From Prorocentrum cordatum (taxonomy: Eukaryota): 64,000 bases of DNA. The translations under genes were made by a program, and so were the position numbers. The stretch is taken from the NCBI GenBank assembly GCA_963575745.1, contig CAUYUJ010000225.1:496001-560000 (forward strand), written 5' to 3'. The notes under the pieces were generated by a model, which had not been told where the DNA came from, ran no database searches, and was given only the letters and a program-made list of their open reading frames with translations. Below, piece by piece: positions 14,977 through 48,084 of this stretch. Numbering within the stretch: the first letter of the stretch is position 1; each line of letters opens with the position of its first letter.

Positions 14977-14998
14977 TCCGTAGCCATGTTGGCTCAAG
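14977..14998 (+). other. Dinoflagellate spliced-leader relic (21/22 match)
   Basis: tccgtagccatgttggctcaag versus DCCGTAGCCATTTTGGCTCAAG; followed by CTT, not by the GT of an SL RNA gene. Confidence 0.93.
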
Positions 14999-15817: not shown

Positions 15818-15999
15818 GGAGGAGGAAGAAGAGGGAGAGGAGGAGGAGGAGGAGGAAGAGGAGGAGGAGGAGGAGAGGAGGAGGAGGAGGAGGAGGATCG
15901 AGAAGGAGGAGGACCTTTTGGACCTTTTGCGCAGCACAGCGTGCTAAAAAGAGGAGGGGAAAACAGAGGGAGGAGGCCAAGCACCTGCACCCAAAGTGG

Positions 16000-16595
16000 C
16001 TACTCCGTAGCAGCCACCCCCAGCGCCTCCTCCTCCCCGCAAGGGGAAGAAGGAACGTGGGAGGGTACAGGGCTTGCCCTCCTGGCACGCTGTGCTGTCT
16101 CCCCGGCGACGCAAGCGTCCACTAACCTCGCATGCGAAATCGCTTGCGAGGCCTTAGACGGCCCCGCATAGCTCGGAAACAGCCCGCGTTTAATTCGGCC
16201 GAGATTCTCACGGCCTTTGCGAGTGGGGGGCTCGCAACCTTCGGCCAAATGGCGACCGTCAACGGCCGCGGTCCGACCACATCTAAAACAAAAATGCAAA
16301 GAATGCAGGTCCCAGAATCCCAGACGGTGGGAGGGGTCGAGCTCCAGCCCACCAACAGCGACGCCACCGCGAGCCGCGGCCACCACGTCCCGAGGAAACC
16401 CAGGAGGGACGACCAGCGGCGAAAAGCACTCCGTCTTCAGGGCCTCTAAGAGGCCCTGCCGGGACGAAAGAACAGAGCACAGTTGGCACCTGAAGCGGGA
16501 CCCGACTGGAATAAACCTGCGAGAGCTGGCCCTGGCAGCGTGCTCGAGGCGTCGGGTGACCCGACGCGGCCGACACTCAAACGCGGCGAAGCTCT
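16000..16595 (-). pseudogene. Out-of-frame C-terminal Cys/His (putative Zn-binding) module of LINE pol
   Basis: RFRCQLCSVLSSRQGLLEALKTEC ... DPSHRLGFWDLHSLHFCFRCGRTAAVDGRHLAEGC; separated from the RT-RNH ORF by a stop/frameshift near the homopolymer at ~16714-16721. Confidence 0.65.
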
Positions 16596-16704
16596 AGCTA
16601 CTCGCGCACGCAGAAAAGCTGCTCGCTCAATGAAAAAAGCCACGCTCGCAGGAAAGCTGCTCGCCCACAGGGCACGGCTACATTTCGGCTTTTCTTGGGC
16701 GGAA

Positions 16705-19700
16705 TTATGCGAAGGGGGGGGTCAGTTTATGCCGCGGCCTCCTCAGTCGGGTCTCGGCGGTCTTCGGCCTAGGCCGCTCGACCTCCGTCGAGGCCTTGGA
16801 CCGCTTGGGATCCGCCGAAGAAGCGTCCGCCAGAGCCCGCCGAGCACGTCGACGCACCAGGGCAGCAGTGAGGTCCCAAGCGTCTGTGGCGGGGACTGTC
16901 TGGGCGGCCAAGGTCCAGGAGCGCTCAGCGGCTTCAGAAGCCGCTTCATCGGCTAACTGATTACCGCTGGCAAGAAAAACTTCATGATGGGAGAGGGAGG
17001 AGTCGTCAGGGGACAGGTGCGAGGGCGTCCATTCGACCGAGACATGCCCTGGGCCTCGGTCGTCGATGGCGCAACGAATTCGCAGCCACAAATCGCTGTT
17101 CCTCCCCCCCAAACTCCAAGGTCGGCCCCGACTCCACCCCGTCATGAGAGGCTTGTGGTCAGTCACAAAATGGACAGGACCTGTGGTGCCTTCCAGGAAG
17201 AGTGCGAAAGCCTGCAGCTCCGACCTGGGCACCGTTTGCGAAGGGCCTCGCAAAATCTCGGAGATGCCCCCCAAGACGGCCCAACGCAAAGGTCCCTCCC
17301 CAGGTCGCGCGTCCCTGACCACTACAACAGCGGAGCCACACCGACGGCGACGAGGGTCGGACGAAAAGCGTCCTCCAGATCCGTCCCCGAAGCCGATCAA
17401 CGGGCTACTGCCAGGGTCTCTAGAGCAGGCTCCAAGAGGGACCTCACCAAGTTGGGCTCTGCTCAGGCTCTCCAACGGCTCCCTGAACACAGGGTGGGTG
17501 ACACGGGTAGGCGGAACACCTCTCAGCCAAAGGCTTGGTTCAGATTCAACAGACGCTAACGCTTGCGGAATCAAATGATCAGTAGACGTAAAATCACTGT
17601 GGTCTTTATTGCAGGGGCAACGCCAAATGCGATGCGCAAGAGTTTCTTCCTCCTGCTGGCATCGCGGACACAGGCGGTCTGCGGGCTCGCTCAGAGGGCG
17701 CTGCCTGTCCATCGTCCACTGGGCGCCCGTGACCACGCACAAATTGAGGCCGAACAGGTCGAGCTCCCCCCTCTTGGCGAAGTGGCTGAGCTCCAGCCTG
17801 GCCCAATAGAGGTCAGCTCCTTCAGCCAGGCCATCCCCTGCAATGTGCTTCGAAGCATTGCTCCAAAGTTGAGCGCGAAAATCAGTGACCACGTCGTCCA
17901 GTAGCTCGGAGATGTCGAAACCAGTGGGGTCGTAGCCTGCACGACGTGCGGTTGGAATCAGCCACTCCTCGATTCCTCCGACAGTGGGTCTCCTCCAACG
18001 GAGGACCGAGGGTACTTCCCATCCCGCGTCAAGCAGGGTCGCAATAACAGCTCCAATAGGTCCTTTGACCAGTCTCCATCTCTTGCTGGCGCCAGCTGCG
18101 AGAAGCCGCCGATGAATGACAGTCCAAGCATTTTCAACTCGATGGTGAATGCTGGTGTCGGTCTTCCAGAGACAGAGAAATTCTGAAAGAAGGCCTCGAC
18201 GTAACTCCAGGGCTGGATCCTTGAGACCGTAAAGGACCGCCAGTGTTGTCGTAAGACACCTGCCCTTCATGGGCCCAGCTCCCGCCACGGCTGCCTGCCG
18301 CCTGACGGCGAGGACGTTGGACGGCGACATGCCATGGGCCTGGTGTCCGTAGGAGCCTTGAGGAGCTGCGCCTGTGGTCCAAAGACCTTGAGCTTCGCGT
18401 CGTAGAGGAGCATGTCTGCGTATGCGGGCAATGCGAGCCGCCCTCCTCTTGCTGGCGGTCAACCTCATTCTGGCCTTAGTGACTGTGCGCCGTTTGCCAG
18501 ATGCCGCATCAATGCCAAGATCCGTGCCGTGAAGGCCGAACCGTACAGGGATACCTCGCTTCTGCAAATGAGCGGCTGTCCTCCTCCCGTCCTGCGGAAC
18601 AGTGGCAATGAGTACAGACTTGTCCGAAAGCTTAAGACGGAATTGCTTGGCGAGGTCGGCAAGAGTGACCGTGGCGTGAAGGATCTCTGTTTGGACCTTG
18701 GCCTGCGTGCCCTCTGCGCGGGCAACCGTGTCGTCGATGAATGTCCAGAAGGTGCTGAAACTCGCTCTGCGATGTGCCGCCTCCATCAATGGATGTAAAA
18801 ACAACTTGGCAATCCTTACCCCATGCGGGGATCCTGCAACGAGTGATCTGGTGGCGTAGATGGCGTCTGCAACGCCAAGAGAGCCACGCAAGAACCGCGG
18901 CCCAGCACACATCTCCAGCTCCAGTAGCACCACAATCGCTGGGAACTTGAGATCGAGTGCAGCCTGGCCGATGAGGATCCAGGATAACGAGTCGTAGAAC
19001 TTCTCGAAGTCCAGGAGTAGGGTCGCCGCCGAGATGCCAAGCGCCACTGCGGATTCATCGAGCAGCGCTCGCAAGAGACCTGCTCGAAGCGAGCTGCTGC
19101 CCGCCACTGCAGTGTCCCAGAAATCAGAGAGCTCCTTAGTCCATGTGGACGTGACGCCTGCTCTCACGCGGGACCAAATCTTCGCCGTCTCTGGAAGTAA
19201 TCCAATGACCCTTTCTCCTCCTTTGGGTTTGGGTAATAATGCTCCAACAGATGCCCAGATCTGAGCAGGCCAAACTCCATGTTCTTCAATGCTGTTGAGA
19301 AGCCTGCAGTAATCACACCGACCTTCGAGTGGAAGTCGCTGGATGTCCAGAGGTGTGATGGAGTCAACTCCGCATGCCTTGGTGCCTAAAACCCTGAGAA
19401 CATTGTCCACCTGCTCGATGCTGACGGGATCCAGCTCCTCCTCGCGGCTCTGCGCGTGCAGGCGCTTGAACATGGCGAGGATGTCGGCCTGAGAGTCGAC
19501 TGGGTCGTGCCAGAGTCTCTCCCAGGTGGATCTGGTGTGTTCCATTCTGACAGTTGGGTCTCCAACGACTCGCCCATCCACTAAGGGGTCGGCAGAGACC
19601 GCCTTGGGTTCCTTCACCAATGAGTGGAGCAGGCCGGGCATAGATGTCCAAACTCCCTTGGCCCAACGGATGAACGAATGCCGCCTCAAGGTCAAGCATC

Positions 19701-20352
19701 TTGCCTGAGAACGACAGGCCAGCTTCTCAGTTAAGTAGGCAAAATCGTCGCGCTCCATCTCAGTGGCGCTCGCGAATGCGCGCGACCAAGAAACCCACCG
19801 CTGCTGATTAGCGGTGCCCTCAGAGCCTGGACCAAAGAAATCAGATGGGTCGAAGCTGCTAGCGTCGTTGGTGTAGCGACCAAGAGCTGCGGTACAAATA
19901 GCTATCTGGCGAGGATCCTTGCCATGTCGTAGAAGAGCCATGATTCTTTGAACCAAGGTAAGAACAGTTCCCCACCATTCTCCAGCTCCATCAGTCATGT
20001 GCACTCGCCCTGGGGTAGCTTTGGTCTGCATCCATCGTAAAGAAAATCCAGCTGCGCGTGGAGCTCGCTGTCGAGGGTTGAGCTGATGATGAAGTGCGAA
20101 AGCACGTTCCACTCCTGAGGACCACCGCGCGTACTGCCTGGTGACGGCACCAAGGCCAAGTGCGTTGATAAGGCCCAACAACTCAGACTCGACCACGCTG
20201 CAACATTGAGAGCTGAGCCTCTCCTTGGAGGGCTGCTCTTCCCACAGGTCTGAAGGTATGTGAAAAGAGACCTGGGACTCAGGATCCAAAGTACTCCTTG
20301 AAGGGTGTAGTGCGTCGTAGTCTTCCAGCAGATCGGGTGGTACGCGTGCCCG
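16705..20352 (-). CDS. LINE pol: reverse transcriptase, CCHC finger and RNase H (in frame with the endonuclease ORF beyond one TAA)
   Basis: RT: KACGVD, LLPKPKGGERVIGLL, LLLDFEKFYDSL, SLVAGSPHG, WTFIDDTV, DLGID. Finger: CPRCQQEEETLAHRIWRC. RNase H: FGDGSG, QTVPRSELQA, FVTDHK, NSDLW, VEWTPSH, GNQLADEAA. Confidence 0.95.
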   Translation of the reverse strand, partial: RARVPPDLLEDYDALHPSRSTLDPESQVSFHIPSDLWEEQPSKERLSSQCCSVVESELLGLINALGLGAVTRQYARWSSGVERAFALHHQLNPRQRAPRAAGFSLRWMQTKATPGRVHMTDGAGEWWGTVLTLVQRIMALLRHGKDPRQIAICTAALGRYTNDASSFDPSDFFGPGSEGTANQQRWVSWSRAFASATEMERDDFAYLTEKLACRSQARCLTLRRHSFIRWAKGVWTSMPGLLHSLVKEPKAVSADPLVDGRVVGDPTVRMEHTRSTWERLWHDPVDSQADILAMFKRLHAQSREEELDPVSIEQVDNVLRVLGTKACGVDSITPLDIQRLPLEGRCDYCRLLNSIEEHGVWPAQIWASVGALLPKPKGGERVIGLLPETAKIWSRVRAGVTSTWTKELSDFWDTAVAGSSSLRAGLLRALLDESAVALGISAATLLLDFEKFYDSLSWILIGQAALDLKFPAIVVLLELEMCAGPRFLRGSLGVADAIYATRSLVAGSPHGVRIAKLFLHPLMEAAHRRASFSTFWTFIDDTVARAEGTQAKVQTEILHATVTLADLAKQFRLKLSDKSVLIATVPQDGRRTAAHLQKRGIPVRFGLHGTDLGIDAASGKRRTVTKARMRLTASKRRAARIARIRRHAPLRREAQGLWTTGAAPQGSYGHQAHGMSPSNVLAVRRQAAVAGAGPMKGRCLTTTLAVLYGLKDPALELRRGLLSEFLCLWKTDTSIHHRVENAWTVIHRRLLAAGASKRWRLVKGPIGAVIATLLDAGWEVPSVLRWRRPTVGGIEEWLIPTARRAGYDPTGFDISELLDDVVTDFRAQLWSNASKHIAGDGLAEGADLYWARLELSHFAKRGELDLFGLNLCVVTGAQWTMDRQRPLSEPADRLCPRCQQEEETLAHRIWRCPCNKDHSDFTSTDHLIPQALASVESEPSLWLRGVPPTRVTHPVFREPLESLSRAQLGEVPLGACSRDPGSSPLIGFGDGSGGRFSSDPRRRRCGSAVVVVRDARPGEGPLRWAVLGGISEILRGPSQTVPRSELQAFALFLEGTTGPVHFVTDHKPLMTGWSRGRPWSLGGRNSDLWLRIRCAIDDRGPGHVSVEWTPSHLSPDDSSLSHHEVFLASGNQLADEAASEAAERSWTLAAQTVPATDAWDLTAALVRRRARRALADASSADPKRSKASTEVERPRPKTAETRLRRPRHKLTPPFA

Positions 20353-21948
20353 TTATTGCTCTTGCCGTTGGGCTCGAAGTATAGACCTCTTGCTGCTGGG
20401 GTCCGAAGCGAGCTTGGGTCTGGCTACCTTTGGAAACGGTTCAGGTAACACAAGTTTCTGGTACCACCATCTGCGCATGCCATCGTGGGCGTCAGCCTGC
20501 AGTGCACAGTGCGTCTTCCACGGGACCTGAGGCTGCGACCGAACTCGGTATCTGGAAGATGTTCCGTTCTTGGCCATTGCGAAATCAATGAGAGAGCCCT
20601 CCTGCCCTTTGTCGCACGTGGTGCTGACGTCAGCGGGTAGAATGAGTGTGCCCCCAATTTTTCCAGGCCAGCCAGATCCTTCCAAGGAAGTTGGTGAAAT
20701 ATTCCAGTCACCGATAACCAACCAAGGGTCTGCAAGCCCATGAAGGAAGGAGGCTAACGCAACCAGCACTTGGCGATTTCTGCCAGAAACTCCCAATCCT
20801 GGCCAAAGATAAACTGATACCAAGACCAGGTTGCCCGAGGACAAGTGCAAGATCATGGCGGCGAACCCGCGCATAGGATCAGGTTGGCGTGCAGCTTGTG
20901 CATATTGCCGAATGGCCTGTAGCGAGGTGGTGGCCAGATGCTTCTTGGCCATGACCCATTCACCGCCAGAAGAGCCTCCTCGTCCTGTTGGTGTGCTCCC
21001 TGTGGCGCAGACCTTCCAGCCGCCTTTGTCCAGTTCGATCTCCGTCTTGGAGTGGAACGCGGCGGCGGTGACATGAGTCTCCACCAGACAAAACACAGAG
21101 TAAGGGGCTGTGTTGACATAGCGCTGCGCTTGAGGCCCCCACTCCGTGATGTTACCGTAAAGGATCGAGAAATCTTTCTCGTCGGATGTGAGCTTGGAGG
21201 GGGCTGGAGCGGCCAAAGCCTGCGCTGCTGGTGCGCTGAGGTCAGCCTCAAGGCAAGTAGGGCCGCTGCTGGAGGCAGCCTGGTCCGCCCTAGCCTCAGA
21301 AGGCCTGGCGGTGACGCCAGGTGGCGAGGGGCCAACCTCCGCCCCGAACGGCGAGTCCTGGTGGAAACGCTCGTTGACCTTCTCCCGCTCCAGCTCCTCG
21401 AACGGATCCAGCTCGGCGTCGTACAGGTGCGCCGTCGTACAGGAAGGGACAGAGGCCTGCGGTCCCGTAGATGCGCGAGGCGCAGCCCTCGGGGGAGGGC
21501 TGTCATTAAGGGCAGCATACGCCAGCCCGCCAAGCGCACCCGTCAGCGAGGCTTGACCCGATGCGCCCGAAGAAGTGCGAGTAGCCGAAATCCTCGCACT
21601 CGGGGATGGCGTAGCTCCGCGCGACGCAGAACGCGACGAACGTCTCGCCTGCGGTGTCCGTGACGCCGAGCCAGGAGCCGCAGTCGGCGAACTGCTCACC
21701 TCCAACGGTGCTGTAGTTGTCTCGCTTCCAAAAGCGCGCTCCTCATCCGAGTCGAGGAAAAACTCGACTGGGTAGGGCCAGGGGCGCCCGCCGTAACAGC
21801 ATGCCGACAAAACTCGGCGCGGCGCCCCTCGATCTGCGTTAGGCTGTGGACGGAGCCCCTGATGCTGCAGGGGAGGGGGCGGTGCCAGGAGCGCCAGGAG
21901 CTGCCTCTGCGGAGGTGGAAGCGGCCTCCTGCTGAGCGTAGAGCTCAT
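20353..21948 (-). CDS. LINE pol N-terminal part: APE-like (EEP) endonuclease; start uncertain (the frame is open up to the ATG at 23325)
   Basis: ILYGNITEW, FCLVETHV, SGGEWVMAK, LVSVYLWPG, WLVIGDWNI, SLIDFAM and WKTHCAL match the ordered APE motifs. Confidence 0.85.
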   Translation of the reverse strand: MSSTLSRRPLPPPQRQLLALLAPPPPLQHQGLRPQPNADRGAPRRVLSACCYGGRPWPYPVEFFLDSDEERAFGSETTTAPLEVSSSPTAAPGSASRTPQARRSSRSASRGATPSPSARISATRTSSGASGQASLTGALGGLAYAALNDSPPPRAAPRASTGPQASVPSCTTAHLYDAELDPFEELEREKVNERFHQDSPFGAEVGPSPPGVTARPSEARADQAASSSGPTCLEADLSAPAAQALAAPAPSKLTSDEKDFSILYGNITEWGPQAQRYVNTAPYSVFCLVETHVTAAAFHSKTEIELDKGGWKVCATGSTPTGRGGSSGGEWVMAKKHLATTSLQAIRQYAQAARQPDPMRGFAAMILHLSSGNLVLVSVYLWPGLGVSGRNRQVLVALASFLHGLADPWLVIGDWNISPTSLEGSGWPGKIGGTLILPADVSTTCDKGQEGSLIDFAMAKNGTSSRYRVRSQPQVPWKTHCALQADAHDGMRRWWYQKLVLPEPFPKVARPKLASDPSSKRSILRAQRQEQ

Positions 21949-23164
21949 CCAGGGCCGACTTGGCCTTGGCTCTGGCAGCAGCGCGCATGGCCTCGGCCCC
22001 GGCTGGAGCTCCTGCTGCCGCAGCGGCGCCAGCGGGCCCAGCCCCGCCAGTTGCAGCAGCAGCAGCGGGGCCAGCAGCAGAGCCAGCCGCATCGCTGTCG
22101 TCCACGCGCCTGCGCTTGGCCTCCTCCCTGGCGCGCAGCTTTCGAGCCTCCTCACGAAGCTCCAGGATGCGCTGCGCCGAGGGTCCGAGGACTTCCTGGA
22201 CCTTGGTCTGGACGCTGTCGGCCAGCTCCTGCTTGATGCGCTCCCAGTCCACGCGCGCCTGCTCGTCGAGCTCCAGGCCAGAGAGGTCGAACAGCGGCCC
22301 GTCCACGATCTGCAGCGAGCCCTCGTCGACGAGCGTCGAAAGGTTGATCGCCGAAGAAGAGGGTGGCGCCGTTGACGGCGGCGCCGCTTTGGCCTTGACC
22401 TGCTTGGCGCAGGCCGCCTCCCAGTCCTGCTGCGCCGCATGAGCGCTGGCGGCCGCCTCGTCCTCTGCGGCCTGGGCGTCAGCAAGCCACTGCTTGCTCT
22501 CCAGGACGCGGGCCGAGCAGGTCTCAAGCCATGCCAGCGCCCTCCTGCAAGCCACGCCTTTGGCCCGCACTTCCTCAAGGAGTGGCGCCTTCTGCGGGGC
22601 ACCCGCGCCTGCAGCAGCTGCCTGTGCCTCCTTCTTGGCCTGCACCGCCGCCTTGAGCTTGAGAAGCTCGTCGCAGTCCGAGCCAAGCTCCTTCTCGAAG
22701 AACTCGAAGGGGTCAGCGGCCTGGGCGGGCTGCTGCTGCTGCTGCTGCTGCCCCACGCGGCCACCATGAGGCACCCAGCCCGCCTGCTGGTAGACCCATG
22801 GCCGACGCTGGACGGCCTGGGCCTTCGGCGCGGGCCGGGGCAAAGGTGGTCCCTTGGCGCCCTTGCCTCCTGCTTGAGCCCAGGGAGGAGCCGCAGGGGC
22901 CTCTGCCGCAGGCTCTGCCTCAGGAGGAGGCGTTGCGCCCGCCTGCGGCGGGCCCCAAACCCACTGGCCGCGGGGACGCTTGTCCTCCGATGGGCTCGGC
23001 ACCATGCCGCCTCCGCACTGGTAGCACCAGTGGTTGTTCTTGAAGTTCCAGCGGAATCTGCAGGAAGTGCATGTGATGTACGTCGTCTTGGCCCCTGCCG
23101 CTGGAGCCGAGCGACCTCCGCCAAAGCCTTTCCTGCCGCCGCCCTTCTTGCCGCCGCCTCCCAT
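21839..23164 (-). CDS. LINE ORF1 (gag-like) with an N-terminal C4 zinc finger and an Ala-rich coiled coil
   Basis: MGGGGKKGGGRKGF...YITCTSCRFRWNFKNNHWCYQCGG (CxxC-x10-CxxC spacing, RanBP2-like), then a long helical A/E/K/Q region; lies 5' of pol. Confidence 0.8.
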   Translation of the reverse strand: MGGGGKKGGGRKGFGGGRSAPAAGAKTTYITCTSCRFRWNFKNNHWCYQCGGGMVPSPSEDKRPRGQWVWGPPQAGATPPPEAEPAAEAPAAPPWAQAGGKGAKGPPLPRPAPKAQAVQRRPWVYQQAGWVPHGGRVGQQQQQQQPAQAADPFEFFEKELGSDCDELLKLKAAVQAKKEAQAAAAGAGAPQKAPLLEEVRAKGVACRRALAWLETCSARVLESKQWLADAQAAEDEAAASAHAAQQDWEAACAKQVKAKAAPPSTAPPSSSAINLSTLVDEGSLQIVDGPLFDLSGLELDEQARVDWERIKQELADSVQTKVQEVLGPSAQRILELREEARKLRAREEAKRRRVDDSDAAGSAAGPAAAAATGGAGPAGAAAAAGAPAGAEAMRAAARAKAKSALDELYAQQEAASTSAEAAPGAPGTAPSPAASGAPSTA

Positions 23165-23325
23165 GGCCGATGCGAGGAAGGCTGCTCTCCCAGTGAAGGG
23201 GGCAGGCGATGGACTGGGGCGGACCAGCCCTCGCAAAGAGGATGTCGGGCGCAAGCACCCTGGCACTGCCGCGGACTAGCGGTATCCAGTTCAGCCAATG
23301 CGGGCTCAGCCCGCACGAAAGGCAT

Positions 23326-23347
23326 CTTGAGCCAAAATGGCTACGGA
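23326..23347 (-). other. Perfect 22-nt dinoflagellate spliced leader TCCGTAGCCATTTTGGCTCAAG
   Basis: Plus strand reads cttgagccaaaatggctacgga; immediately followed by ATG on the minus strand. Confidence 0.98.
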
Positions 23348-24640
23348 GGAGGAGGAGGAGGAGAGGACGAGGATGAGGATGAGGATGAGGATGAGGATGA
23401 GGATGAGGATGAGGATGAGGAGGAGGAGGAGGAGGAGGGGAGAGGAGGAGGAGGAGGGCAGAGGGGCAGGAGGAGGAGGGAGGAGGGCGAGGAGGAGGAG
23501 GGAGGAGGAGGAGGAGGAGGAGGAGGAGGAGGACGAGGAGGGAGGAGGAGGAGGAGGAGGGAGGAGGAGGAGGAGGGGGAGGAGGGGCCGGAGCGAGGAG
23601 GCGAGGAGGAGGGGCGGAGGAGGAGGAGGAGGGAGGAGGAGGAGGCGAGGAGGAGCGAGGAGGAGGAGGAGGAGGGAGGAGGAGGAGGATGAGGAGGAGG
23701 AGGAGGAGGAGAGGAGACGGAGGAGGAGGAGAGAAGGATGGGGCAGGAGAGAGGAGGAGGAGGAGGAGGAGGAGGAGGGCGGAGGAGGAGGGGAGGAGGA
23801 GGCGGAGGAGGAGGAGGAGAAGGAGGAGGAGGAGAGGAGGAGGAGGAGGAGGAGGAGGAGGAGAGGAGGACGAGGGAGGAGGAGGAGGAGGGGAAGGAGG
23901 GGCAGGAGGAGGAGGAGGCGGAGGAGGAGGGGCAGGAGGAGGAGGAGGAGGACGAGGAGGAGGAGGAGGAGGGCGACGAGGATGGAGAGGAGGAGGAGGC
24001 AGGAGGAGGAGGACGAGGAGGAGGAGGAGGCGGAGGAGGAGGGGCAGGAGGAGGAGGAGGAGGAAGAGGAGGAGGAGGAGGAGGAGAGGAGGAGGTGAAG
24101 GAGGGGCAGGAGGAGGAGGAGGAGGAGGAGGCGGAGGAGGAGGGGACGAGGAGGAGTCCTTGCCCCCGCCCCGGAGGGCAGCGGCCGAGGAGCGCGGGCG
24201 GCGGCGCCGCGCGCTGCGCGGCGCGCGGGCCGCCGGCGGAGACAGGCCGGACGGCTACGGCGCGGGCGGGTGGGGCGAGGGAGGAGGGAGGGAGGGAGGA
24301 GGGAGGAGGGAGGAGGGAGGAGGGAGGGAGGAGGGTGAGGGGGGAGGGAGGAGGGTAATGGGGGAGAGGGAGGGAGGGAGAGGGAGGAGGGAGGGAGGAG
24401 GGTGTAGGGAGGAGGGGAGGAGGGGGGAGGGAGGGTAAGGGAGGAGGGAGGAGGGAGGAGGGAGGAGGGAGGGTGGGGAAGGGAGGAGGGAGGACGGAGG
24501 GAGGAGGGACCAGGGACCAGGGGCCGGGAGGGAGGGTAAGGGAGGAGGGAGGAGGGAGGAGGGAGGAGGGAGGGTGGGGAAGGGAGGAGGGAGGACGGAG
24601 GGAGGAGGGACCAGGGACCAGGGGCCAGGGAGAGGCCTCC
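23345..24640. repeat. (GAG)n and purine-rich low-complexity tract
   Basis: About 1.3 kb of gag/ggag repeats, interrupted at ~24155-24275. Confidence 0.95.
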
Positions 24641-26577: not shown

Positions 26578-26638
26578 CTCGTAGAAGGAGGTGATGTCCG
26601 CGATGCCGGGCAGGAAGACGATGAGCGTGCACTTCTCC
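26578..26638 (-). CDS. DEAH helicase exon with motif IV: (R)EKCTLIVFLPGIADITSFYE
   Basis: LIVFLPG..DI is the DEAH/RHA motif IV; ggcag|G acceptor and GAG|gc donor. Confidence 0.9.
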
Positions 26639-26942
26639 CTGCCGCGCGGGCTCCGGGCGGCCCAGGGCCACCGGCGCGTTGGAGAGAAGGGGGCGGAGTT
26701 TTGTTCGGGGCAGGTTTCCGCATCCAGTGGCCACGCTCCGGGATCAGGAAAGGCAAGGGACGGCCTCGGGTGATATCAGTGATAACCCACACCCCTGGGA
26801 GTGGTCCAGAGGTCTGGAGGCGCTGTCTCTGAAGGACTGGAGACGTCAGAGCTCTGGGGCTGTCCGAGCCCCCCTCGCAGGGCACGGACAACTGGCCGCG
26901 TCAACCCGCCGACGCCGTCACTATGCCTCGTGAGAAGGAAGA

Positions 26943-26994
<52 letters not shown>

Positions 26995-27899
26995 CAGGAG
27001 GAGGGCCACTGCCTCCAAGCGTGCGTGGCCCTCTCTGGGCCCCTGGGGGGCCACCAGAGACCCCACGAGACCGCCAGCTTCAACGTGCCATCCGCCGCCT
27101 TGCGCCACAGCTTCTCCCTGTCGGCGGGCGTCGGGCGGCTGTCGGAGCCCCAAGAGCGAGGCCGCGCCACCTCGACCAGGAAAGTGCTTCAGCGCGCTCG
27201 CACAATTCGGCCGGGAGTCGATTGGACCACCCGGGCTGCCCGCTGGCCGAAATGGCAAGTGATGGTCCGGGCCAGTTATCGGGGCACTCGGGGCCACTCG
27301 GCCGCTTGGGACACTTGCCCAACAATCCTGTGCCTGGGTCTGAGGGCCAGTTGGGCCACTTCCACGCGCCCAGTCTATCTCCAGATGGCCCAAGGTTACC
27401 CAACGCCACAATCGCCCACCAAGTGCCCCGAGTCCCCCCAAATGACCCGAGTTGGCCCCGAGTGGGCCCGGGAGGAGGAGGAGGAGGAGGAGGAGGAGGA
27501 GGAGGAGGAGGAGGAGGAGGAGGAGGAGGGGCCCAAGCTGCCCCAGGGGCTACTCGGCCTATTCCGCCAGTCGAGAGCGCAGCCAGGGTCAGGCACCTAT
27601 CGGGGGGGGGGCACTTGGGGCCACTCAGGCTACTGGGGCCAGCGTCGTCCCCAAGAGATAGCCCAAGATAGCCCAAGAGAGCCCGACCAAGATGGCACGA
27701 CCAAGATAGCCCAAGAAAGCCCGAAGAGGGGCCCCATAAAGGCTTCAAGTCTACCCCAAGGCGACCCCAAGATCCCCCAAGAGGGCCCCAAGAGCCCGAA
27801 GGACCCCCACAAATTACGCTACCCAGGAACCCCACATACTTCGTTTGAACTCGTGTCTTAGCGTAGCTGACATGCAACATACGTGGATCATGCTAAGTG

Positions 27900-28537
27900 G
27901 TCAAGAAAATGCCGCGCCTGCTGTGCCGTGGACGACCAGGGCGGATAGTGCCCCAACCCCCAGCGCACCCCCTTGTGCCGTCGAGAAAACGCCACGCCTG
28001 CCATGCCCTGCGAGCCTGCAACGCATAGCGCCCCCACCCCCAGCGCACCCCCTGTGCCGTCGAGGAAATGCCACGTCCTGCGAGCCTGCAATGCATAGCG
28101 CCCCCACCCCCAGCGAACTCCCAGTGGCGTCGAGGAGATGCCACGCCTGCCATGCCCTGCGAGCCTGCAACGCATAGGAATCACGGTGAGAGGCCACCCC
28201 CTCTGGCGTCGAGAGAATGCCACGCCTGCCACGCCTGCCACGCTTTGCGAGCGTACGACGGATAGGGACCCCACCCACAGCACACCCCCTGTGGCGTCGA
28301 GAAAAGGCCGCCCCTGCCACACTCTGCGAACGTACGACGGATAAGGACCCCACCCCCAGCACACCCCCGGTGGCATCGAGAAAATGTCACCCCTGCCACA
28401 CTTTGCGAGCGTACGACGGATAAGGACCCCACCCCCAGCACACCCCCTGTGGCGTCGAGAAAATGTCACCCCTGCCACACTTTGCGAGCGTACGACGGAT
28501 AAGGAACCCACCACCAGCACAACACCTGTGGCGTCGA
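27900..28537 (+). repeat. Degenerate ~60-80 bp tandem minisatellite
   Basis: Recurrent gcgtcgagaaaatgccacgcctgcca...gcgagc...ccccacccccagc. Confidence 0.85.
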
Positions 28538-28986
28538 TGTGTGTGTGTATGTGTGTGTGTGTGTGTGTTTGCGGCTGTATCTGGACGTGTGTTTCATGTC
28601 AGTGCCCAGTATGTGTCATGTGTCTGATGCGTGTGCGGCTATATCTGGACGTGTGTCTCATGTGGGTGCCCAGTATGTGGCGCATACGTCGTGGGTGTAT
28701 GATGCAGTGAACACGCCAGGCGTGCACTGGCGGTATTCATGTGTGTGTGCGTGTTGCGAACGACGACCGCCGAAAGGTGCTAGATGGCCAGCATGCGCGC
28801 AGGCCTGTCCTGGGGGAACAAGCCATGACACAGCATACACTTTCGGAGGTCCGCGCGGATTTCTCGGATCGGCGCTGGACCCCCTTCCCAGGCGCGCGCA
28901 GCAGCGCGCCAGGGGCGGCGTCGGAGGCGCCGCCAGAGGGCCCGCAGGCCTGCCTCCCGTCCCGCCCGCCCGCAGAGCGCCCCGGC

Positions 28987-29029
28987 CTCGCCATCTGCTG
29001 CACCAGCTCCTTGCAGAGCATGTCGCAGC
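28987..29029 (-). CDS. DEAH helicase exon: (G)CDMLCKELVQQMA(R)
   Basis: ggcag|GC acceptor and AG|gc donor; phases fit both neighbours. Confidence 0.8.
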
Positions 29030-29149
29030 CTGCCAGGGCGGCTCCGGCGCGCGGGAGGCCAGGGGGAGGAGGGCTTTTTCAAGAGCGGCGAACGTATCCA
29101 TCGTCGTCGTCGCTGTCGTCGTCGTCGCAGCCGTCGTCGTTGTCGTCGT

Positions 29150-29520
29150 CGTCGTCGTCGCCCAGGTGGTGACCCTCGCCGCGACGCCCTCGCGGTCTGT
29201 CGGCGGCGAGCCCAGGTGGGAAGTGAGAAGTGATTGGCCTTCTCGGAAGGCTCGGAAGGCATCGGGCCTTCTGAAACATGTTCTAAGACTTCCCCGAAGA
29301 CACACCAACACTTCCTAGAAGGACAGAGGGCTTCTGAGAAGTCCCGCCACCTTTCGAGAAGGCCTGCTCCTTCTCGTTTCCCCCTAGGCGCGCCGCTGAT
29401 GGGTTCCAGGGCGCGATCCCGCGGATACGAGGTCGCTCGGATACGTTCCTCGTGGAGCATCTGCGAACAAAAACGTCACGTATCTGCGGGTCGTGGCCCA
29501 AGGGCCTGGCCCGCGAGGCC
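29150..29520. repeat. ~370-bp repeat with a diverged inverted copy at ~32405-32775
   Basis: gcccaggtgggaagtgagaag...ggccttctcggaaggctcggaaggc...gggttccagggcgcgatcccgcggatacgaggtcgctcggatacgttcctcg is the reverse complement of the 32.4-32.8 kb block. Confidence 0.85.
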
Positions 29521-30197
29521 GCGGATACAGATGTCTTCCGCACATGAATTGATCCATGCAAGCAGCGAGGCAGCAGCAGCCACGGAACTAGCGACGAGAT
29601 GCGCTGGAAGTTGAGGCCGTGGCCACGAGCAGATCAGGCTGGCCTAGGATGACGTCCCAGGATTCCCAGTATCCAGCGGCCCTTGTTTCTGGAGCTCGTG
29701 CGGGACATTAAGGGATCGGGGAAATCCTGGAACTCCTGGGAAATCGAGGAACGCATCACGATCCTCGCCTCTTGCTCCTCTGCTCCTCTGCACCCCGCAC
29801 CTCGCCCAGGGGCAGGATCGATCGGCCAGCATCGAAACGGGGAGTCGGATCGAATCGACATGTCTGGCCATCGCTCGGACGTCCATTCCCTGTGCTTTTT
29901 TTGTTTTCGTGCGTGGTTTTTTCGCCAAATGATCAAGGATGCTCCTCGATGGTCCTCGCCGAGAAAAAATGCACACGTCCGAGCGATGCCAGGATGTGCC
30001 TCGGATCGGGCGGCATCGGCACGGAGGCGAAATCTCAGATCGGATCGGCCGCGCCGGGACGAGCATCGGCGCCGTGCAGGCATCGGGCCGCATCGGACCC
30101 TCGGACTATCGGAGTCGAGTCGGCTCGCTCCGTGTTTTCTGTGCTTTGTGTGTGTGTGTGTGTGCGTGTGCGTGTGCGTGTGCGTGTGCGTGTGCGT

Positions 30198-30248
<51 letters not shown>

Positions 30249-31936
30249 TGTGTTTGTTTGTTTTTGGTTTGTTTTTGTTTTTGCTACTGTCTTTTGTTTT
30301 TGTTTTGTGTGTGTTTGCTTTTTCCAATCGACATCGAATCGGATCGATCAGATCGAAGGGGGCCCTGCTGGAGGTCAGGGAGCCCGGCCGACCTGCGGGC
30401 CCGAGGCTCCGAGGGGGCCCGCGGCGGCGCCCCCTCCTCGAGGGCCTCCCGCCGGGGGGGCCCACTCCTCCCGCCCGAGGCCGAGGGCGCGAGGGAGGGC
30501 ATCGTCCGCTCCGCTGCCCGCACACGCCGTTGAGGGGGAACAGATTTTTTTTCCAGCGCTATTTTGGAGAGGAGGGAGGAAGAGGCGACAGGGAGACAAC
30601 GCACACACCTGATCATTGTCCGACTCGTGCCGGGGAGTCGGCAGGCAACCCTGCCGCAGGACCGTCATCGCCCTTTCCTCCCGAGTGAGACCTGCAGGAA
30701 ACCAGGTGGCCATTGAGGGGGAACAGAAAGATACCGACACCGCTGCCCATATCTACCCATCGGTCGGAAGAAGTAGGTATAACCATCTGAAGTAGGAAGG
30801 CGCTGGGAGCAGATCGGGCTCCCGCCCGCCTCCTCTAGAGGAGGGAGGAGAGGGAAAGCCACTCGACTCTTGAAGTAGGAAGGCGGCTGAGGCAGATTGG
30901 AACCTGGGAACCCCACAATGACCTGCCCTCAACGACCGATGGGTACTCTCGGGGGCGTCCAAGAGGGGGGGGGTCGCAACTCACGGCCCCCGAGGCATGC
31001 GGCGGACGAGGGGGAGCCACCGGGCGCACCGAAAGAAGACGAGGGTGCCAAGAGATCCAGGGAGGTGTCATGGCACCGGCCATGGTATCCCCACCCTCCT
31101 GCAGTGGAGGCCAGCCCACAAGAGACCAGGAAGCTGTAGCACGCGTGGCCGCGTCCGTCCGTGGAGCATCTGGAGAACGCGCGCTGCTCCGCTTGCAGGT
31201 AGAGTGCCCAGCCGCACGGGAGCGGAGCGCCGGAGAAGGCGCTCGCCCTGCCCAGCCACATCAGGTGGCCGGGTCTGGAACCCCTGACCCCCAAAAACGA
31301 CGACGTCGGACTTTCACTTCCGACGCCTTCTGTGGACCGTCCGCCGGCTTCCGCCAACCGACCCGCCGCTTCTTTACCTCCGCTGGCCTACAGCGGAGGC
31401 CAGTCCACAAGAGACCTTCCACAAGAAACCCAACCCTGAGACCCCAGGACGTCCACTGTTTTTTTGCGTGGGAACGTCGCGCCCTCCATCGCAACACCAT
31501 CGAAACCCAAGAAGCCCAGGGCACCCTGGAGGCGAGCAGGGTGCTTCTTGGCATGGGCCCCCACAGTAGTCATCACCACCCCCTTGGCCGCCCCCGATGC
31601 TCGCCGGACCTCTCCCGGGGCGCGTTCTGACCAGGGCGCCGAGGAGAATCCAGCCGTGGCGACGGGGGCTCTCCAGGACGAGCAGCGGCATCGGTACACC
31701 TCTGCCCCTCCGAATGTCAGAGACAGCTCGAGAGCGTGCTCTCTGCGCCGGCAGCGCACCCACTGAGGCGAACGGCGGGCAGCCACGACCGGCCTGTCTT
31801 CGTGAGCAAGCGCGTGGGGCGCCCCCGGGCCCCAGACGCTTCCGCCAGCGGAGGCGGCCTCGTTTTGTTTCCGCCGCCATGCGTTGGGAGGAGATGCCAA
31901 CTCCTTCGATCCTTGCATGGAGGACGAAGAAGCAGC

Positions 31937-32100
31937 ATAAACATAGATTTTCGGAGCTCCGCGCGGATTTCTTGAAACTGCGCTGGAATCCCCATGGCGG
32001 CGCCTCCGGCGCCGCCCCTGGCGCGCTCCGCGCGCCAGGGATGGGGGGGCCAGCGCCGATCCAAGAAGTCCGCGCGGACCTCGAAACGTTTATGCTCATG
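31937..32100. mobile_element. MITE-like element, same family as 50957-51107 (also ~25266-25450 and partial ~28834-28935)
   Basis: ttcggagctccgcgcggatttcttg ... ccaagaagtccgcgcggacctcgaaacgtttatg, with internal hairpin cctggcgcgctccgcgcgccagg. Confidence 0.75.
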
Positions 32101-34999: not shown

Positions 35000-35180
35000 T
35001 CGGGGAGACATAAGACTCTGATACAGGAAACTCGGGTTGGCCTGACGGGGCCATCGCAAAAATGACGAGACACAACTTAACATTTGACGCGAGCTCCCGC
35101 TGCACACGTCCCACGAAAACGGGACCGTCAAAGTCCAGGACGCGCTCGTCAAAAAACGTCGGCAAACCCAAGTTCCGGCC
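35000..35180 (+). repeat. Interspersed repeat; second copy at ~52295-52450
   Basis: actcgggttggcctgacggggccat...aaaatgacga...gcgagctcccg...ggaccgtcaa...cgtcggcaa...agttccggc. Confidence 0.85.
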
Positions 35181-35207
35181 CCCTCGAGTCTTACTAAAGG
35201 GGAACTG

Positions 35208-35360
35208 GGACACACAAATATATAGACACAAATAACCAGAATCCCCATATTTTCTAATATTTTCTGGATTTTTGTCTTCCCCCCCACTTCCCATATTTTC
35301 CTATATTTTCCGGGGGATCGACGATTAATCGTGTCTGTGTGTGTTTTTTTCCTCCTGACT
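35208..35360 (+). repeat. Interspersed repeat; second copy at ~25467-25618
   Basis: ggacacacaaata...ccccccacttcccatattttcctatattttcc.ggggatcgacgattaat. Confidence 0.85.
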
Positions 35361-35970
35361 TACGCTTCCCCGAAAACGTGTATGTGTGCCGTCTCTTGCT
35401 GCTGCGCGGGCTGCCCGAGGCTCACGACGCGGCGGGAGGGGGCGATGGCAGAGGAAGGGCACAGCCGGCCCGTATACGAAGGATACGCGGTAGGGATGCA
35501 TGGGCCCTGGAGGGCCATGCTGGCGTTCTTCGAGCGAGGCTGGCCAGCGGACGTCGCTAAGGATGGGCCAGAGGGGCGAGGATGCAAGGGTACCCTTGGT
35601 CGGGGGCGCGCAGAGATGGATTAGCGATCCATGGTTTTGGCGCGCGGTCGCCAGATCCATGGATCGGGGGAGGTGCCCTCCCCCAAACGCGGCCGGCGCC
35701 GCCTCGCTCGGCGGCGGAAATCGGCGATTCCCCGTGGAGACGGGGCCCGTCGCCAATCCACGCCCCCTTGATCCATGTTTGCAGTCGCCTGACTTGGGAA
35801 GGCTGCTCATCCTCACTGTGCGGGTTGACTGTACCGAGTCCGCCGCGCGCAGCCGGTCTTTCCGGCGCTGGGCGGCGCCGGACGCGGCCATGCATCGAGG
35901 GACGTGCCCGGCGGCCGGGCCGAGGCCAGCTGCAGGCAGCAGGCTGCGCATCTCCCCCCCCCTCTGGTGG

Positions 35971-36214
35971 TACCGTGGATGTAAACAATTAACGCGAAAC
36001 TTATTCATAACGTTGGATTTCGCCATTCAAAGGCCGCGAGTTCCAGGTAGGACAAGATCGCCAGCTGCCCGCGAAAATGTAAACAATAAACGCGAAACAC
36101 GGAAGCATTTTTTTCAACCTGGGGCCGTTCATGCCTAGCTTGCGTTCCATATCTTTGAATGGCGGAATTCAATGTTACGGATGGGTTTCGCGTTAATTCT
36201 TTACATCCACGGTA
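35971..36214. mobile_element. 244-bp MITE with 28-bp TIRs and a TA target-site duplication (Tc1/mariner-pogo-like ends)
   Basis: ta-ccgtggatgtaaacaattaacgcgaaac ... gtttcgcgttaattctttacatccacgg-ta; one mismatch. Confidence 0.88.
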
Positions 36215-36656
36215 GCGGTGTGGTGCCCCGCTGCTGGGCTTGACGCCCTACCCCGCTCGGCCTCGCCTCAGCTTAGCTCAACATGCTTCTGCATCTCCCG
36301 TTGTCTTGCTTTCTTTCGGAGTGGTCTTGTCCATCCCTCTCTCTCTCTCCCTCTTTCGGTCTGGCCGCCTGGGCCCGAGCAGCGTGGACTCGTGCCGGAG
36401 GGGTTACCAGTGAGAGGGTGGGGCCAAAGACAGAGAAAGCGAGACCAGACGTGAGGCGGGGCTGCGCACTCGAGCGAGACTGCCACTCGCGTCTCGCTTC
36501 CAGCCTGACAGGAGTCCTGTTACCCTCACGTTGGCCATGCATAGCCAAAACTGCAACCTCCCCCCTCATCTGCGACAGCCGCATCACTGCTGCAGCTGGT
36601 CGTGGGACTCCCAGTCCCCACGTGCGCTGGGACGGCAGCGAAGAGAAGGGGGCGGC

Positions 36657-36761
36657 CTTCGACGATCGCCGGCTCCGCGCGTTTGAACCCCGACGCACTC
36701 CCGGCGATTGTGCCGCTGTTGTCGCCCTTCTTGCCCTTGCCCTTGCCCTTGTCCTTGCCTC
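36657..36761 (-). CDS. DEAH helicase exon: (G)GKDKGKGKGKKGDNSGTIAGSASGFKRAEPAIVE(G)
   Basis: ccaag|GA acceptor and AAG|gc donor; phase 1/1 links the 45.8-kb and 29.0-kb exons. Confidence 0.75.
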
Positions 36762-40790: not shown

Positions 40791-40791
40791 G

Positions 40792-43742: not shown

Positions 43743-43744
43743 GT

Positions 43745-45192: not shown

Positions 45193-45386
45193 TCTCCCGA
45201 GCTGTCCCCTGACGTTCAGTCAGTCATCAGTCAGCCGGCGGGCACGGAATTTCACCTGGCTCCGCCGGGAATGAATGTTCCTCACATTTTTGAATGCTTT
45301 TCGTCGTCGCCGCCGTCGCCGTCGCCGTCGAAGCCGTCGTCGTCGAAGCCGTCGTCGTCGAAGCCGTCGTCGTCGTCGTCGTCGTG

Positions 45387-45437
<51 letters not shown>

Positions 45438-48023: not shown

Positions 48024-48084
<61 letters not shown>

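What the first reader, a model, noticed from the sequence alone, without database searches (positions are those of the whole stretch)
15912..23347. Full-length LINE capped by a perfect spliced leader: a possibly promoterless, trans-splicing-dependent retrotransposon
Seen: the 5' boundary of a 7.4-kb ORF1 + APE-RT-RNase H element is exactly TCCGTAGCCATTTTGGCTCAAG (23347-23326). It is preceded on the sense strand by about 800 bp of (TCC)n, and the element lies sense within an intron of a helicase gene. Established: this is the dinoflagellate SL that is trans-spliced onto mRNAs; SL relics mark retroposed mRNAs. Inference: the element RNA was trans-spliced and reverse transcribed to its very 5' end. 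The genomic SL ends in AG and follows a polypyrimidine tract supplied by the target site, so it could act as a trans-splice acceptor. That would release a capped, unit-length element RNA from host read-through transcripts and regenerate an identical 5' end each cycle with no internal promoter. An alternative is insertion at pre-existing SL sequences, as CRE/SLACS/NeSL elements do, but those use a restriction-like rather than an APE endonuclease.
Basis: partly seen in the sequence, partly recalled or inferred. Interest (0 to 1): 0.9.

Follow-up and report, generated by a model that had tools for sequence, protein, structure and literature searches.

The report
Spliced-leader-capped LINE in a TCC microsatellite
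A 7.4-kb dinoflagellate jumping gene (a LINE retrotransposon) begins exactly with the 22-base spliced leader that this group of algae adds to its mRNAs, which shows its RNA was trans-spliced before being copied back into the genome; whether it depends on trans-splicing in place of a promoter of its own is still untested.

Summary
A perfect 22-nt dinoflagellate spliced leader (SL), 23347-23326 on the minus strand, directly abuts a 7.4-kb non-LTR retrotransposon with ORF1 and an APE-RT-RNase H-zinc-finger ORF2. The element sits inside a (TCC)n array: 812 bp upstream and at least 96 bp downstream.

The copy is full-length but not intact. ORF2 carries one TAA and a 195-bp stop-bearing segment that some other copies lack.

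It lies in the same orientation as five DExH-helicase exons upstream. No downstream exon was found, so "within an intron" is not shown.

Best reading: the element's mRNA was SL trans-spliced, then reverse-transcribed to its 5' end into a TCC repeat. Supporting hints:
- a second SL-led unit in the window shares a 20-nt leader motif;
- a distant relative on a metagenome contig has an SL-like relic at its 5' junction.

The attractive extension, a promoterless cycle that re-uses the relic's AG and the TCC tract as a trans-splice acceptor, is compatible with the data but untested. No genome was held and no run on record as RNA was listed.

SL-tagged retrotransposon loci have been noted in flatworms, and dinoflagellate data hint at the same. 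This is therefore a new variant of a known kind.

The parts
23326..23347 (-). Perfect 22-nt dinoflagellate spliced leader forming the 5' terminus of the element. The first 3 nt (TCC) are ambiguous with the flanking repeat.
   Evidence: 0 mismatches; 0 of 100 shuffles gave a match
23165..23325 (-). 161-nt 5' UTR. It begins with an ATG (23325) that is in the ORF2 frame.
   Evidence: the open frame across ORF1 is not significant (p about 0.075)
23268..23287 (-). 20-nt leader motif GGATACCGCTNNTCCGCGGC, shared with the second SL-led unit
   Evidence: (2 matches in the window, 0 expected)
21839..23164 (-). ORF1, 441 aa plus TAA. It has an N-terminal CxxC...CxxC zinc knuckle followed by a coiled-coil-like, Ala/Gln-rich region. 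No Pfam family matches.
   Evidence: similar knuckle in ORF1 of L001 (weak, E 0.26)
16000..21948 (-). ORF2 in the family's frame, from the first plausible in-frame ATG at 21948 (it overlaps the end of ORF1 by about 110 nt) to the TAG at 16002-16000. In this copy it is interrupted (see below).
   Evidence: P0035 and P0186 align collinearly in frame -2
20236..21180 (-). Apurinic/apyrimidinic-type endonuclease (APE) domain
   Evidence: Pfam Exo_endo_phos E 3e-7, 30.8 bits against a cut-off of 24.5; tblastn with P0035
20353..20355 (-). In-frame TAA between APE and RT. The relatives read through this position with a sense codon.
16807..20145 (-). Reverse transcriptase (FIDD at 18741-18730) and RNase H
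   Evidence: RVT_1 and RNase_H in relatives; profile against human LINE-1 ORF2p, E about 1e-13
16551..16745 (-). 195-bp segment with internal 25-nt repeats. It holds all 4 in-frame stops of this stretch (16707-16594, the first being the TAA at 16707-16705) and is flanked by a 7-nt direct repeat ACCCGAC. Some copies in public runs lack it.
   Evidence: (joints 16550>16746 and 16552>16748: X1 2 contigs, X2 1, X5 1)
16126..16551 (-). C-terminal cysteine-rich (zinc-finger) domain of ORF2, in the ORF2 frame but cut off in this copy
   Evidence: 39% identity to the P0035 C-terminus, E 5e-21
15912..15999 (-). Short 3' UTR ending in two tandem CAAAAGGTC units (15929-15912). There is no poly(A). The last 2-3 nt overlap the TCC repeat.
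23348..24156 (-). Upstream (TCC)n flank, about 810 bp on the sense strand
15818..15911 (-). Downstream (TCC)n flank, cut off by the scaffold gap 15718-15817
14977..14998 (+). Second SL relic (TCCGTAGCCATGTTGGCTCAAG, 1 mismatch), preceded by about 25 nt of TCC-type sequence. It leads an unidentified unit that runs into the gap. Its leader motif is at 15022-15041.
26578..51328 (-). Five exons of a DExH (spindle-E-like) helicase gene upstream of the element and on the same strand: 51328-51143, 50933-50826, 36759-36643, 29030-28986, 26640-26578

Best explanation
This is a full-length but now defective copy of a dinoflagellate non-LTR (LINE) retrotransposon. It has ORF1 and an ORF2 with APE endonuclease, reverse transcriptase, RNase H and a C-terminal zinc-finger domain. 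Its RNA received the 22-nt spliced leader by trans-splicing, as nuclear mRNAs of dinoflagellates do. The RNA was then reverse-transcribed to its very 5' end by target-primed reverse transcription at a nick in a (GGA)n/(TCC)n microsatellite, so the SL was written into the genome as the element's first 22 bases. The 3' end (...GGTCC) and the SL's 5' end (TCCG...) both share TCC with the target. This fits priming and 5' joining by microhomology, and it fixes the element's orientation so that the pyrimidine strand lies upstream. Shown: the anatomy, the exact SL junction, the TCC flanks on both sides, the multi-copy family and the defects of this copy. Inferred: trans-splicing of the element RNA, insertion by target-primed reverse transcription with microhomology, and a preference for TCC repeats. 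How new transcripts of SL-capped copies arise is left open.
For: The SL is exact and sits at the boundary. The SL is followed directly by element sequence, not by an SL-gene intron, and no Rfam family matches in the window. The same (TCC)n lies on both sides. APE is confirmed directly. RT, RNase H and the C-terminal domain are confirmed through relatives. There are no LTRs or terminal inverted repeats. The family is multi-copy with variants in four laid public runs. A second SL (1 mismatch), also preceded by TCC-type sequence in the sense orientation, shares a 20-nt leader motif found nowhere else in the window. On a metagenome contig (L001, ORF2 28% identical), two LINE copies lie head to tail, and the downstream copy starts with a sequence matching the SL at 15 of 20 positions, right after the upstream copy's 3' end. 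That sequence is followed by a 5' UTR sharing CCCGCATTGG with this element. Papers describe the same logic for SL-tagged retrogenes in dinoflagellates (passages) and suggest it for LTR/LINE loci in flatworms (passages).
Against: Only one copy of this family could be read across its 5' junction. The laid contigs did not show which contigs bridge the junction between the SL and the 5' UTR. The L001 relic is weak on its own: a 15-mer with 3 mismatches occurs twice in the contig against 0.34 expected, 14 of 200 shuffles reach 2, and it is more decayed than the 12% divergence of the neighbouring 3' ends would predict. The second SL-led unit could not be identified as a LINE. GGA/TCC tracts cover about 4% of the window, so a TCC preference rests on little. 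No RNA evidence was available.
Confidence: 0.75

Rival explanations
1. One reading: the family has no promoter. Copies landing in the sense orientation inside host transcription units are transcribed by read-through. The genomic SL relic's terminal AG, behind the TCC polypyrimidine tract, serves as the trans-splice acceptor. A capped, unit-length RNA with an identical 5' end is thus regenerated in every cycle.
For: The element lies on the same strand as, and downstream of, five helicase exons. An 812-bp pyrimidine tract is followed by an SL ending in AG. Neither of the two SLs in the window is followed by a truncated relic, which repeated use of the internal CCGTAG acceptor would leave (0 of 2). 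The head-to-tail copies in L001 with an SL-like sequence at the junction would allow the same release. In Amphidinium, a genomic SL-like sequence at the exact trans-splice site has been noted for one gene (passage).
Against: No RNA data were available. The usual acceptor in recycled dinoflagellate retrogenes lies inside or before the relic and leaves truncated relics (passages), so exact re-use of the terminal AG would be unusual. No consensus features of dinoflagellate acceptor sites beyond the AG are established (passage). Only one family copy was seen, and it is defective. The intron context is not shown.
Confidence: 0.25
2. The SL relic itself acts as a core promoter (the TTT(G) motif proposed for dinoflagellate retrogenes), so SL-capped copies bring their own promoter.
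For: This was proposed for retrogenes by Song et al. (passages). The SL here is intact, including TTTT.
Against: Transcripts starting downstream of the relic would lose 5' sequence in each cycle, unless they are trans-spliced back at exactly the same site. There is no test of promoter activity here or, as those authors say, elsewhere.
Confidence: 0.1
3. Reverse-transcriptase template switch: on reaching the 5' end of an uncapped element RNA, the enzyme jumped onto an SL RNA or another SL-capped mRNA, producing a chimera without trans-splicing of the element RNA.
For: LINE reverse transcriptases are known to switch templates (recalled, not tested).
Against: A jump onto SL RNA would copy its intron part between the SL exon and the element, and none is present. 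A jump onto another mRNA would have to land exactly 22 nt from its 5' end. The same architecture appears at a second unit with a shared leader motif.
Confidence: 0.05
4. Site-specific insertion next to a pre-existing SL sequence or SL RNA gene, as in SLACS/CRE/CZAR/NeSL-1.
For: The SL is adjacent to a LINE.
Against: The whole SL exon lies 5' of the element and nothing from an SL gene follows the 3' end. Both flanks are the same TCC array. The endonuclease is an N-terminal APE, not a restriction-like enzyme. No SL RNA or other Rfam family matches.
Confidence: 0.03

Closest known systems
DinoSL-tagged retrogenes ('mRNA recycling') of dinoflagellates
   Same: A DNA-level SL at the 5' end marks reverse transcription of a trans-spliced RNA (passages).
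   Different: Here the retroposed RNA is that of an autonomous-type LINE itself. There is a single, complete SL rather than a truncated relic, and no A-tail. [quoted passage not shown] Song et al. 2017, however, report 'RNA-dependent DNA replication' enriched among SL-relic genes (passage).
Dinoflagellate LINEs with APE + RVT_1 + RNase H and no poly(A) (SymbioLINE of de Mendoza et al. 2018)
   Same: Same ORF2 domain order, conserved UTRs and no poly(A) tail (passages).
   Different: ORF1 here has no DNMT. Homology to SymbioLINE was not tested because no sequences were at hand. That paper does not mention an SL at the 5' end (0 occurrences of 'spliced leader').
SL-bearing LTR/LINE loci in flatworms
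   Same: Authors suggest that retrotransposon transcripts received the SL by trans-splicing before integration (passages).
   Different: This is a different phylum and a different SL. Those loci hold partial leaders, with no anatomy of a full-length copy, no microsatellite context and no proposed life cycle.
SLACS / CRE / CZAR / NeSL-1 (SL-gene-specific LINEs; recalled from memory)
   Same: LINEs physically associated with SL sequences.
   Different: Those elements insert into the SL exon of SL RNA genes with a restriction-like endonuclease. Here the SL is the element's own 5' cap relic, the target is (TCC)n and the endonuclease is an APE.
L1Tc/ingi with the Pr77 internal promoter in trypanosomatids
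   Same: A LINE in an organism that trans-splices its mRNAs.
   Different: Pr77 drives unspliced transcripts (abstracts listed). That is the opposite solution to the one suggested here.
Microsatellite-targeting APE LINEs of animals (recalled from memory, not checked in a paper)
   Same: Insertion inside a simple repeat, with a 3' end that matches the repeat unit.
   Different: Target specificity here rests on one copy plus a short TCC run at a second unit.

Membership tests
Non-LTR (LINE) retrotransposon with APE endonuclease | N-terminal APE (Exo_endo_phos) domain in ORF2 | tested here: met
   Pfam E 3e-7, 30.8 bits against a cut-off of 24.5
Non-LTR (LINE) retrotransposon with APE endonuclease | LINE-type reverse transcriptase | tested here: met
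   The window protein alone gave no Pfam hit at E 0.01. Its 43%-identical relative P0035 reaches RVT_1 at the cut-off, and a 20-sequence profile hits human LINE-1 ORF2p at E about 1e-13. The FIDD motif is present.
Non-LTR (LINE) retrotransposon with APE endonuclease | No long terminal or inverted terminal repeats | tested here: met
Non-LTR (LINE) retrotransposon with APE endonuclease | Target-site duplication | tested here: inconclusive
   Both flanks are the same simple repeat, so a duplication cannot be recognised.
Non-LTR (LINE) retrotransposon with APE endonuclease | Named clade (L1, I, Tx1, R1 ...) | not tested
   No reference set of clade sequences was available.
SL-gene-specific LINEs (SLACS/CRE/CZAR/NeSL-1) | Restriction-like endonuclease downstream of the RT | tested here: not met
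   An APE lies at the N-terminus. The C-terminal domain is a cysteine-rich finger with no endonuclease hit.
SL-gene-specific LINEs (SLACS/CRE/CZAR/NeSL-1) | Insertion within the SL exon of an SL RNA gene, with the rest of the gene at the 3' flank | tested here: not met
   The whole SL lies 5' of the element and the 3' flank is (TCC)n. There is no Rfam hit.
DinoSL-tagged retrocopies | SL sequence encoded in DNA at the 5' end of the retroposed unit | tested here: met
DinoSL-tagged retrocopies | Re-expression with a new SL, leaving a truncated relic | tested here: not met
   No truncated relic lies behind either SL in the window. RNA was not available.
Microsatellite-specific LINE | Most copies in the same repeat and the same orientation | tested here: inconclusive
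   One copy lies inside (TCC)n, and a second SL-led unit follows about 25 nt of TCC-type sequence. GGA/TCC tracts cover about 4% of the window. The contig data could not resolve the flanks.

The most novel reading that the evidence does not exclude
A lineage of dinoflagellate LINEs has given up its own promoter and treats the spliced leader as its heritable 5' terminus. Copies insert, pyrimidine strand upstream, into (TCC)n tracts inside unidirectional host transcription units. Read-through RNA is cut free and capped by trans-splicing at the AG of the genomic SL, restoring an identical unit-length RNA in each generation. The same machinery would also plant SL-tagged cellular mRNAs (retrogenes) into TCC repeats.
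Probability: 0.2. Interest if true: 0.8.

Novelty: new variant of a known kind. Interest (0 to 1): 0.55.

Why it matters
How LINEs keep a promoter through 5'-complete retrotransposition is a classic problem, and dinoflagellates add a twist because a trans-spliced leader replaces the 5' end of their mRNAs. A LINE whose genomic copies begin with the SL shows that the element's RNA enters the normal mRNA pathway. It offers a concrete, testable model for promoter-independent propagation in gene arrays that are transcribed by read-through. It also points to a candidate for the long-sought machinery behind the very abundant SL-tagged retrogenes of dinoflagellates, for which papers so far favour copia-type LTR elements or leave the question open (passages). 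Finally, it gives a simple genomic marker, the SL plus a leader motif, for finding full-length copies.

Tried and rejected
- **Whole genome:** none is held for this window, so the decisive census of copies could not be made.
- **RNA runs:** no RNA holder was listed by the look-up of sequencing runs.
- **Laid contigs:**
  - They are short contigs dominated by (GGA)n.
  - The many 'joints' from about 15899 to about 23344 are repeat-to-repeat matches, not empty sites.
  - Loose ends at 23326 only show that the SL is joined to many other sequences elsewhere.
  - Which contigs bridge the junction between the SL and the 5' UTR was not shown.
- **Searches for related loci:**
  - Metagenome scan with the N-terminus of ORF1: 594 pattern matches, 0 relatives.
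  - Alignments A2 and A3 were too divergent for the search for related loci.
  - Alignment A4 gave 2 loci; L002 is an RT fragment only.
  - Viral and prokaryotic collections: 0 relatives.
- **Leader-motif scans:**
  - 35 hits in prokaryotic genomes, roughly the number I estimate by chance for 18 specified bases in a collection of that size.
  - None of the 37 loci fetched so far holds the exact SL 15-mer.
  - 0 hits in viral contigs.
- **Pfam on window ORFs:**
  - 89 long ORFs outside the element, plus ORF1 and the RT-RNase H frame (91 proteins), and 103 shorter ORFs, found no helicase domain.
  - The only hits were below or near cut-off, on low-complexity translations (for example CitMHS at 14390-15088).
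  - The helicase was found by motif scan and homologues instead.
- **ATG at 23325:** the idea that it opens one giant ORF across ORF1 was tested. The +1 frame is stop-free in 7.5% of synonymous shuffles, so it is not significant.
- **5' UTR fold:** z = -1.66, unremarkable.
- **195-bp segment as an intron:** rejected. It has no GT/GC...AG ends on the sense strand and is flanked by a 7-nt direct repeat.
- **CCGTAGCC at about 24262-24255:** an 8-mer only, consistent with chance.
- **SL-encoded peptides at the N-termini of 190 fetched proteins:** none found.
- **Earlier findings of this scan:** nothing.
- **Literature:** four answered full-text searches and passages of 15 papers gave no explicit description of an SL-capped LINE in dinoflagellates. 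Supplementary files were not opened and could hold such cases.
Full report
**1. Observation**

- The minus strand at 23347-23326 reads TCCGTAGCCATTTTGGCTCAAG. This is the dinoflagellate spliced leader (SL) as given in papers (abstract listing; passage). It has no mismatch, and none of 100 shuffles of the window gave a match.
- Directly downstream on that strand comes ATGCCTTTCG..., which is element sequence.
- Upstream on that strand, Tandem Repeats Finder reports a (GGA)n array on the plus strand at 23345-24156. It is 812 bp long with 271 units and 80% matches, and it runs on as GAGG-type repeats to about 24610.
- The same repeat follows the element's 3' end at 15818-15913, where it is cut off by a 100-N scaffold gap at 15718-15817.
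- The element therefore sits inside a TCC microsatellite, not merely behind one.
- Because the SL starts with TCC and the element ends in ...GGTCC, each boundary is ambiguous by up to 3 nt.

**2. Anatomy (minus strand)**

| Feature | Coordinates | Notes |
|---|---|---|
| SL | 23347-23326 | perfect 22 nt |
| 5' UTR | 23325-23165 | 161 nt |
| ORF1 | 23164-21839 | 441 aa; N-terminal CxxC...CxxC knuckle, then an Ala/Gln-rich, coiled-coil-like part; no Pfam family |
| ORF2 | from 21948 (first plausible ATG) to the TAG at 16002-16000 | overlaps the end of ORF1 |
| 3' UTR | 15999-15912 | two tandem CAAAAGGTC units at the end, no poly(A) |

- ORF2 holds an APE endonuclease (Pfam Exo_endo_phos, E 3e-7, above the cut-off).
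- The RT-RNase H part gave no Pfam hit by itself, but other evidence places it:
  - It has 4687 relatives at E <= 0.001 and 298 at E <= 1e-30 among cluster representatives.
  - Of the 8 long relatives scanned, 3 gave RVT_1, 5 gave RNase_H, 2 gave Exo_endo_phos and 1 (P0124) gave no family. P0039 carries all three.
  - A 20-sequence profile hits human LINE-1 ORF2p at about 1e-13, and RNase H domains as well.
- Two intact relatives, P0035 (1822 aa, 43% identical) and P0186, align to the window collinearly in one frame:
  - APE at 21180-20236;
  - RT-RNase H at 20145-16807;
  - a C-terminal cysteine-rich domain at 16551-16126.
- No LTRs or terminal inverted repeats are present.
- This is a LINE of the APE-RT-RNase H type. 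It has the same domain order and the same lack of poly(A) as described for Symbiodinium LINEs (passages). Its clade was not determined.

**3. The copy is full-length but not intact**

- An in-frame TAA (20355-20353) sits where the relatives read through.
- Between the RNase H domain and the C-terminal domain lies a 195-bp segment (16551-16745).
  - It holds all four stops of this stretch. The first is the TAA at 16707-16705, which ends the RT-RNase H open frame.
  - It is flanked by the 7-nt direct repeat ACCCGAC and contains two 25-nt internal repeats.
- Contigs of three public runs join 16550 to 16746 or 16552 to 16748, that is, without this segment: X1 2 contigs, X2 1, X5 1. Both forms therefore exist in the family.

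**4. The family**

- Four runs were laid: two labelled as organisms and two as metagenomes. All four hold contigs 90-99+% alike along the whole element (30, 29, 30 and 27 of 30 bins covered).
- At many positions all contigs differ from this copy (table 3). The family is therefore multi-copy and this copy has private changes.
- Summed depth is lower over ORF1 than over ORF2 in X1 (about 50-115 against about 40-340). This would fit 5' truncation of many copies, but such depth is a poor measure and I give it little weight.

**5. Host context**

- A motif scan found ILDEVH...MSAT on the minus strand at about 51.3 kb.
- Transcript-derived DExH helicases (spindle-E-like; 82-86% identical over that exon) map to five exons on the minus strand:

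| Helicase residues | Window coordinates |
|---|---|
| 181-242 | 51328-51143 |
| 246-281 | 50933-50826 |
| 297-333 | 36759-36643 |
| 331-345 | 29030-28986 |
| 343-363 | 26640-26578 |

- Nothing convincing matches residues beyond about 365 anywhere at 1-26577, although a 15-residue exon was detectable elsewhere.
- The element is thus downstream of, and in the same sense as, a helicase gene fragment. Whether it lies in an intron cannot be told. The rest of the gene may lie beyond the window or in the scaffold gap, or may be absent.

**6. How the SL got there**

- An SL exon that abuts the element, with no SL-gene intron behind it, no remainder of an SL gene at the 3' flank and the same TCC array on both sides, is what full-length reverse transcription of a trans-spliced RNA gives. 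Dinoflagellate retrogenes are read the same way (passages).
- Site-specific insertion into an SL gene is disfavoured by the flanks and by the APE.
- A template switch onto SL RNA would bring in intron sequence, and none is present.
- The shared TCC at both ends fits priming of reverse transcription on a nicked (GGA)n strand and microhomology at the 5' join. That is inference.

**7. Is it a family trait?**

Three hints suggest so.

- **Second SL in the window.**
  - It lies at 14977-14998 on the plus strand, with one mismatch (CCATGTTGG). A Polarella transcript has been reported with the same change (passage).
  - It is also preceded by TCC-type sequence on its own sense strand.
  - It shares the 20-nt motif GGATACCGCTNNTCCGCGGC, 23 nt behind the SL against 38 nt in the element. 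The motif occurs nowhere else in the window.
  - The unit runs into the gap and could not be identified.
- **Metagenome contig L001** (6873 bp; ORF2 28% identical).
  - It holds head-to-tail LINE copies. The 3' end region recurs at 140-370 and at 6590-6830, 88% identical.
  - Right after the first 3' end comes GAGGAGGCATTTCGGCTCCAG. MAFFT aligned this to the SL at 15 of 20 positions.
  - It is followed by a 5' UTR that shares CCCGCATTGG with this element, and by an ORF1 with a similar zinc knuckle (weak).
  - Taken over the whole contig the SL-like match is not significant: 2 matches against 0.34 expected, and 14 of 200 shuffles reach 2. Its value lies in its position.
- **No truncated relic.** Neither SL in the window is followed by one.

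**8. The promoterless-cycle idea**

- It is compatible with the sense orientation behind host exons, the long pyrimidine tract, the AG at the end of the SL and the single SLs.
- It is not tested. There is no RNA, only one family copy was seen at its junction, and that copy is defective.
- The usual acceptors in recycled retrogenes leave truncated relics (passages), so exact re-use would be special.
- A published alternative is that the relic's TTT(G) acts as a promoter (passages).
- GGA/TCC 9-mers cover about 2.6 kb of the 64 kb window. Landing in such a tract has a chance probability of a few per cent, which is suggestive and no more.

**9. What is known**

- I found no paper that describes a dinoflagellate LINE starting with the SL. 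This rests on the searches and the passages read.
- Song et al. 2017 report 'RNA-dependent DNA replication' enriched among SL-relic genes (passage). This may be the same phenomenon seen without being named.
- In flatworms, SL-bearing LTR/LINE loci were noted and explained as integration of trans-spliced retrotransposon RNAs (passages).
- The basic event is therefore of a known kind. The full-length anatomy, the microsatellite setting, the shared leader motif and the testable life-cycle model are what is new.

**10. Verdict**

- The core interpretation (trans-spliced, fully reverse-transcribed LINE RNA) is well supported, at about 0.75.
- The promoterless, acceptor-regenerating cycle is an open and attractive hypothesis, at about 0.2-0.25.
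- Interest 0.55.

Noticed in passing
window 14977-15717 (+): A second SL-led unit. Its SL carries the T>G variant CCATGTTGG, the same change as in a non-canonical SL reported for a Polarella transcript. It follows about 25 nt of TCC-type sequence and a (TCACCA)n array at 14601-14894. An ORF from 15190 with no family match runs into the scaffold gap. The unit is convergent with the LINE.
   Followed up: partly
L001 1-480 and 6590-6873: A metagenome contig with head-to-tail copies of a distantly related LINE. An SL-like 20-mer (15 of 20 matches) lies exactly between the 3' end of one copy and the 5' UTR of the next.
   Followed up: partly
window 16551-16745 (-): A 195-bp insertion/deletion polymorphism of the family, flanked by a 7-nt direct repeat and holding two 25-nt internal repeats. 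It is either a small insertion with a target duplication or a microhomology deletion in other copies.
   Followed up: partly
window 23325-20356 (-): The ATG directly behind the SL opens a 990-codon frame that is the ORF2 frame and overlaps all of ORF1. A synonymous shuffle of ORF1 leaves this frame stop-free in 7.5% of trials, so it is probably a by-product of GC-rich codons.
   Followed up: yes
window 26578-51328 (-): A DExH (spindle-E-like) helicase gene with very long introns (about 14 kb, 7.6 kb and 2.3 kb) full of simple repeats, including a (CA/CG)-type tract translated as His-Thr/His-Ala runs at about 51.4-51.8 kb. Only residues 181-363 of about 1290 could be placed.
   Followed up: partly
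whole window: GGA/TCC-type simple repeats are unusually common, about 2.6 kb of 64 kb in perfect 9-mers. GC is about 62% overall.
   Followed up: partly
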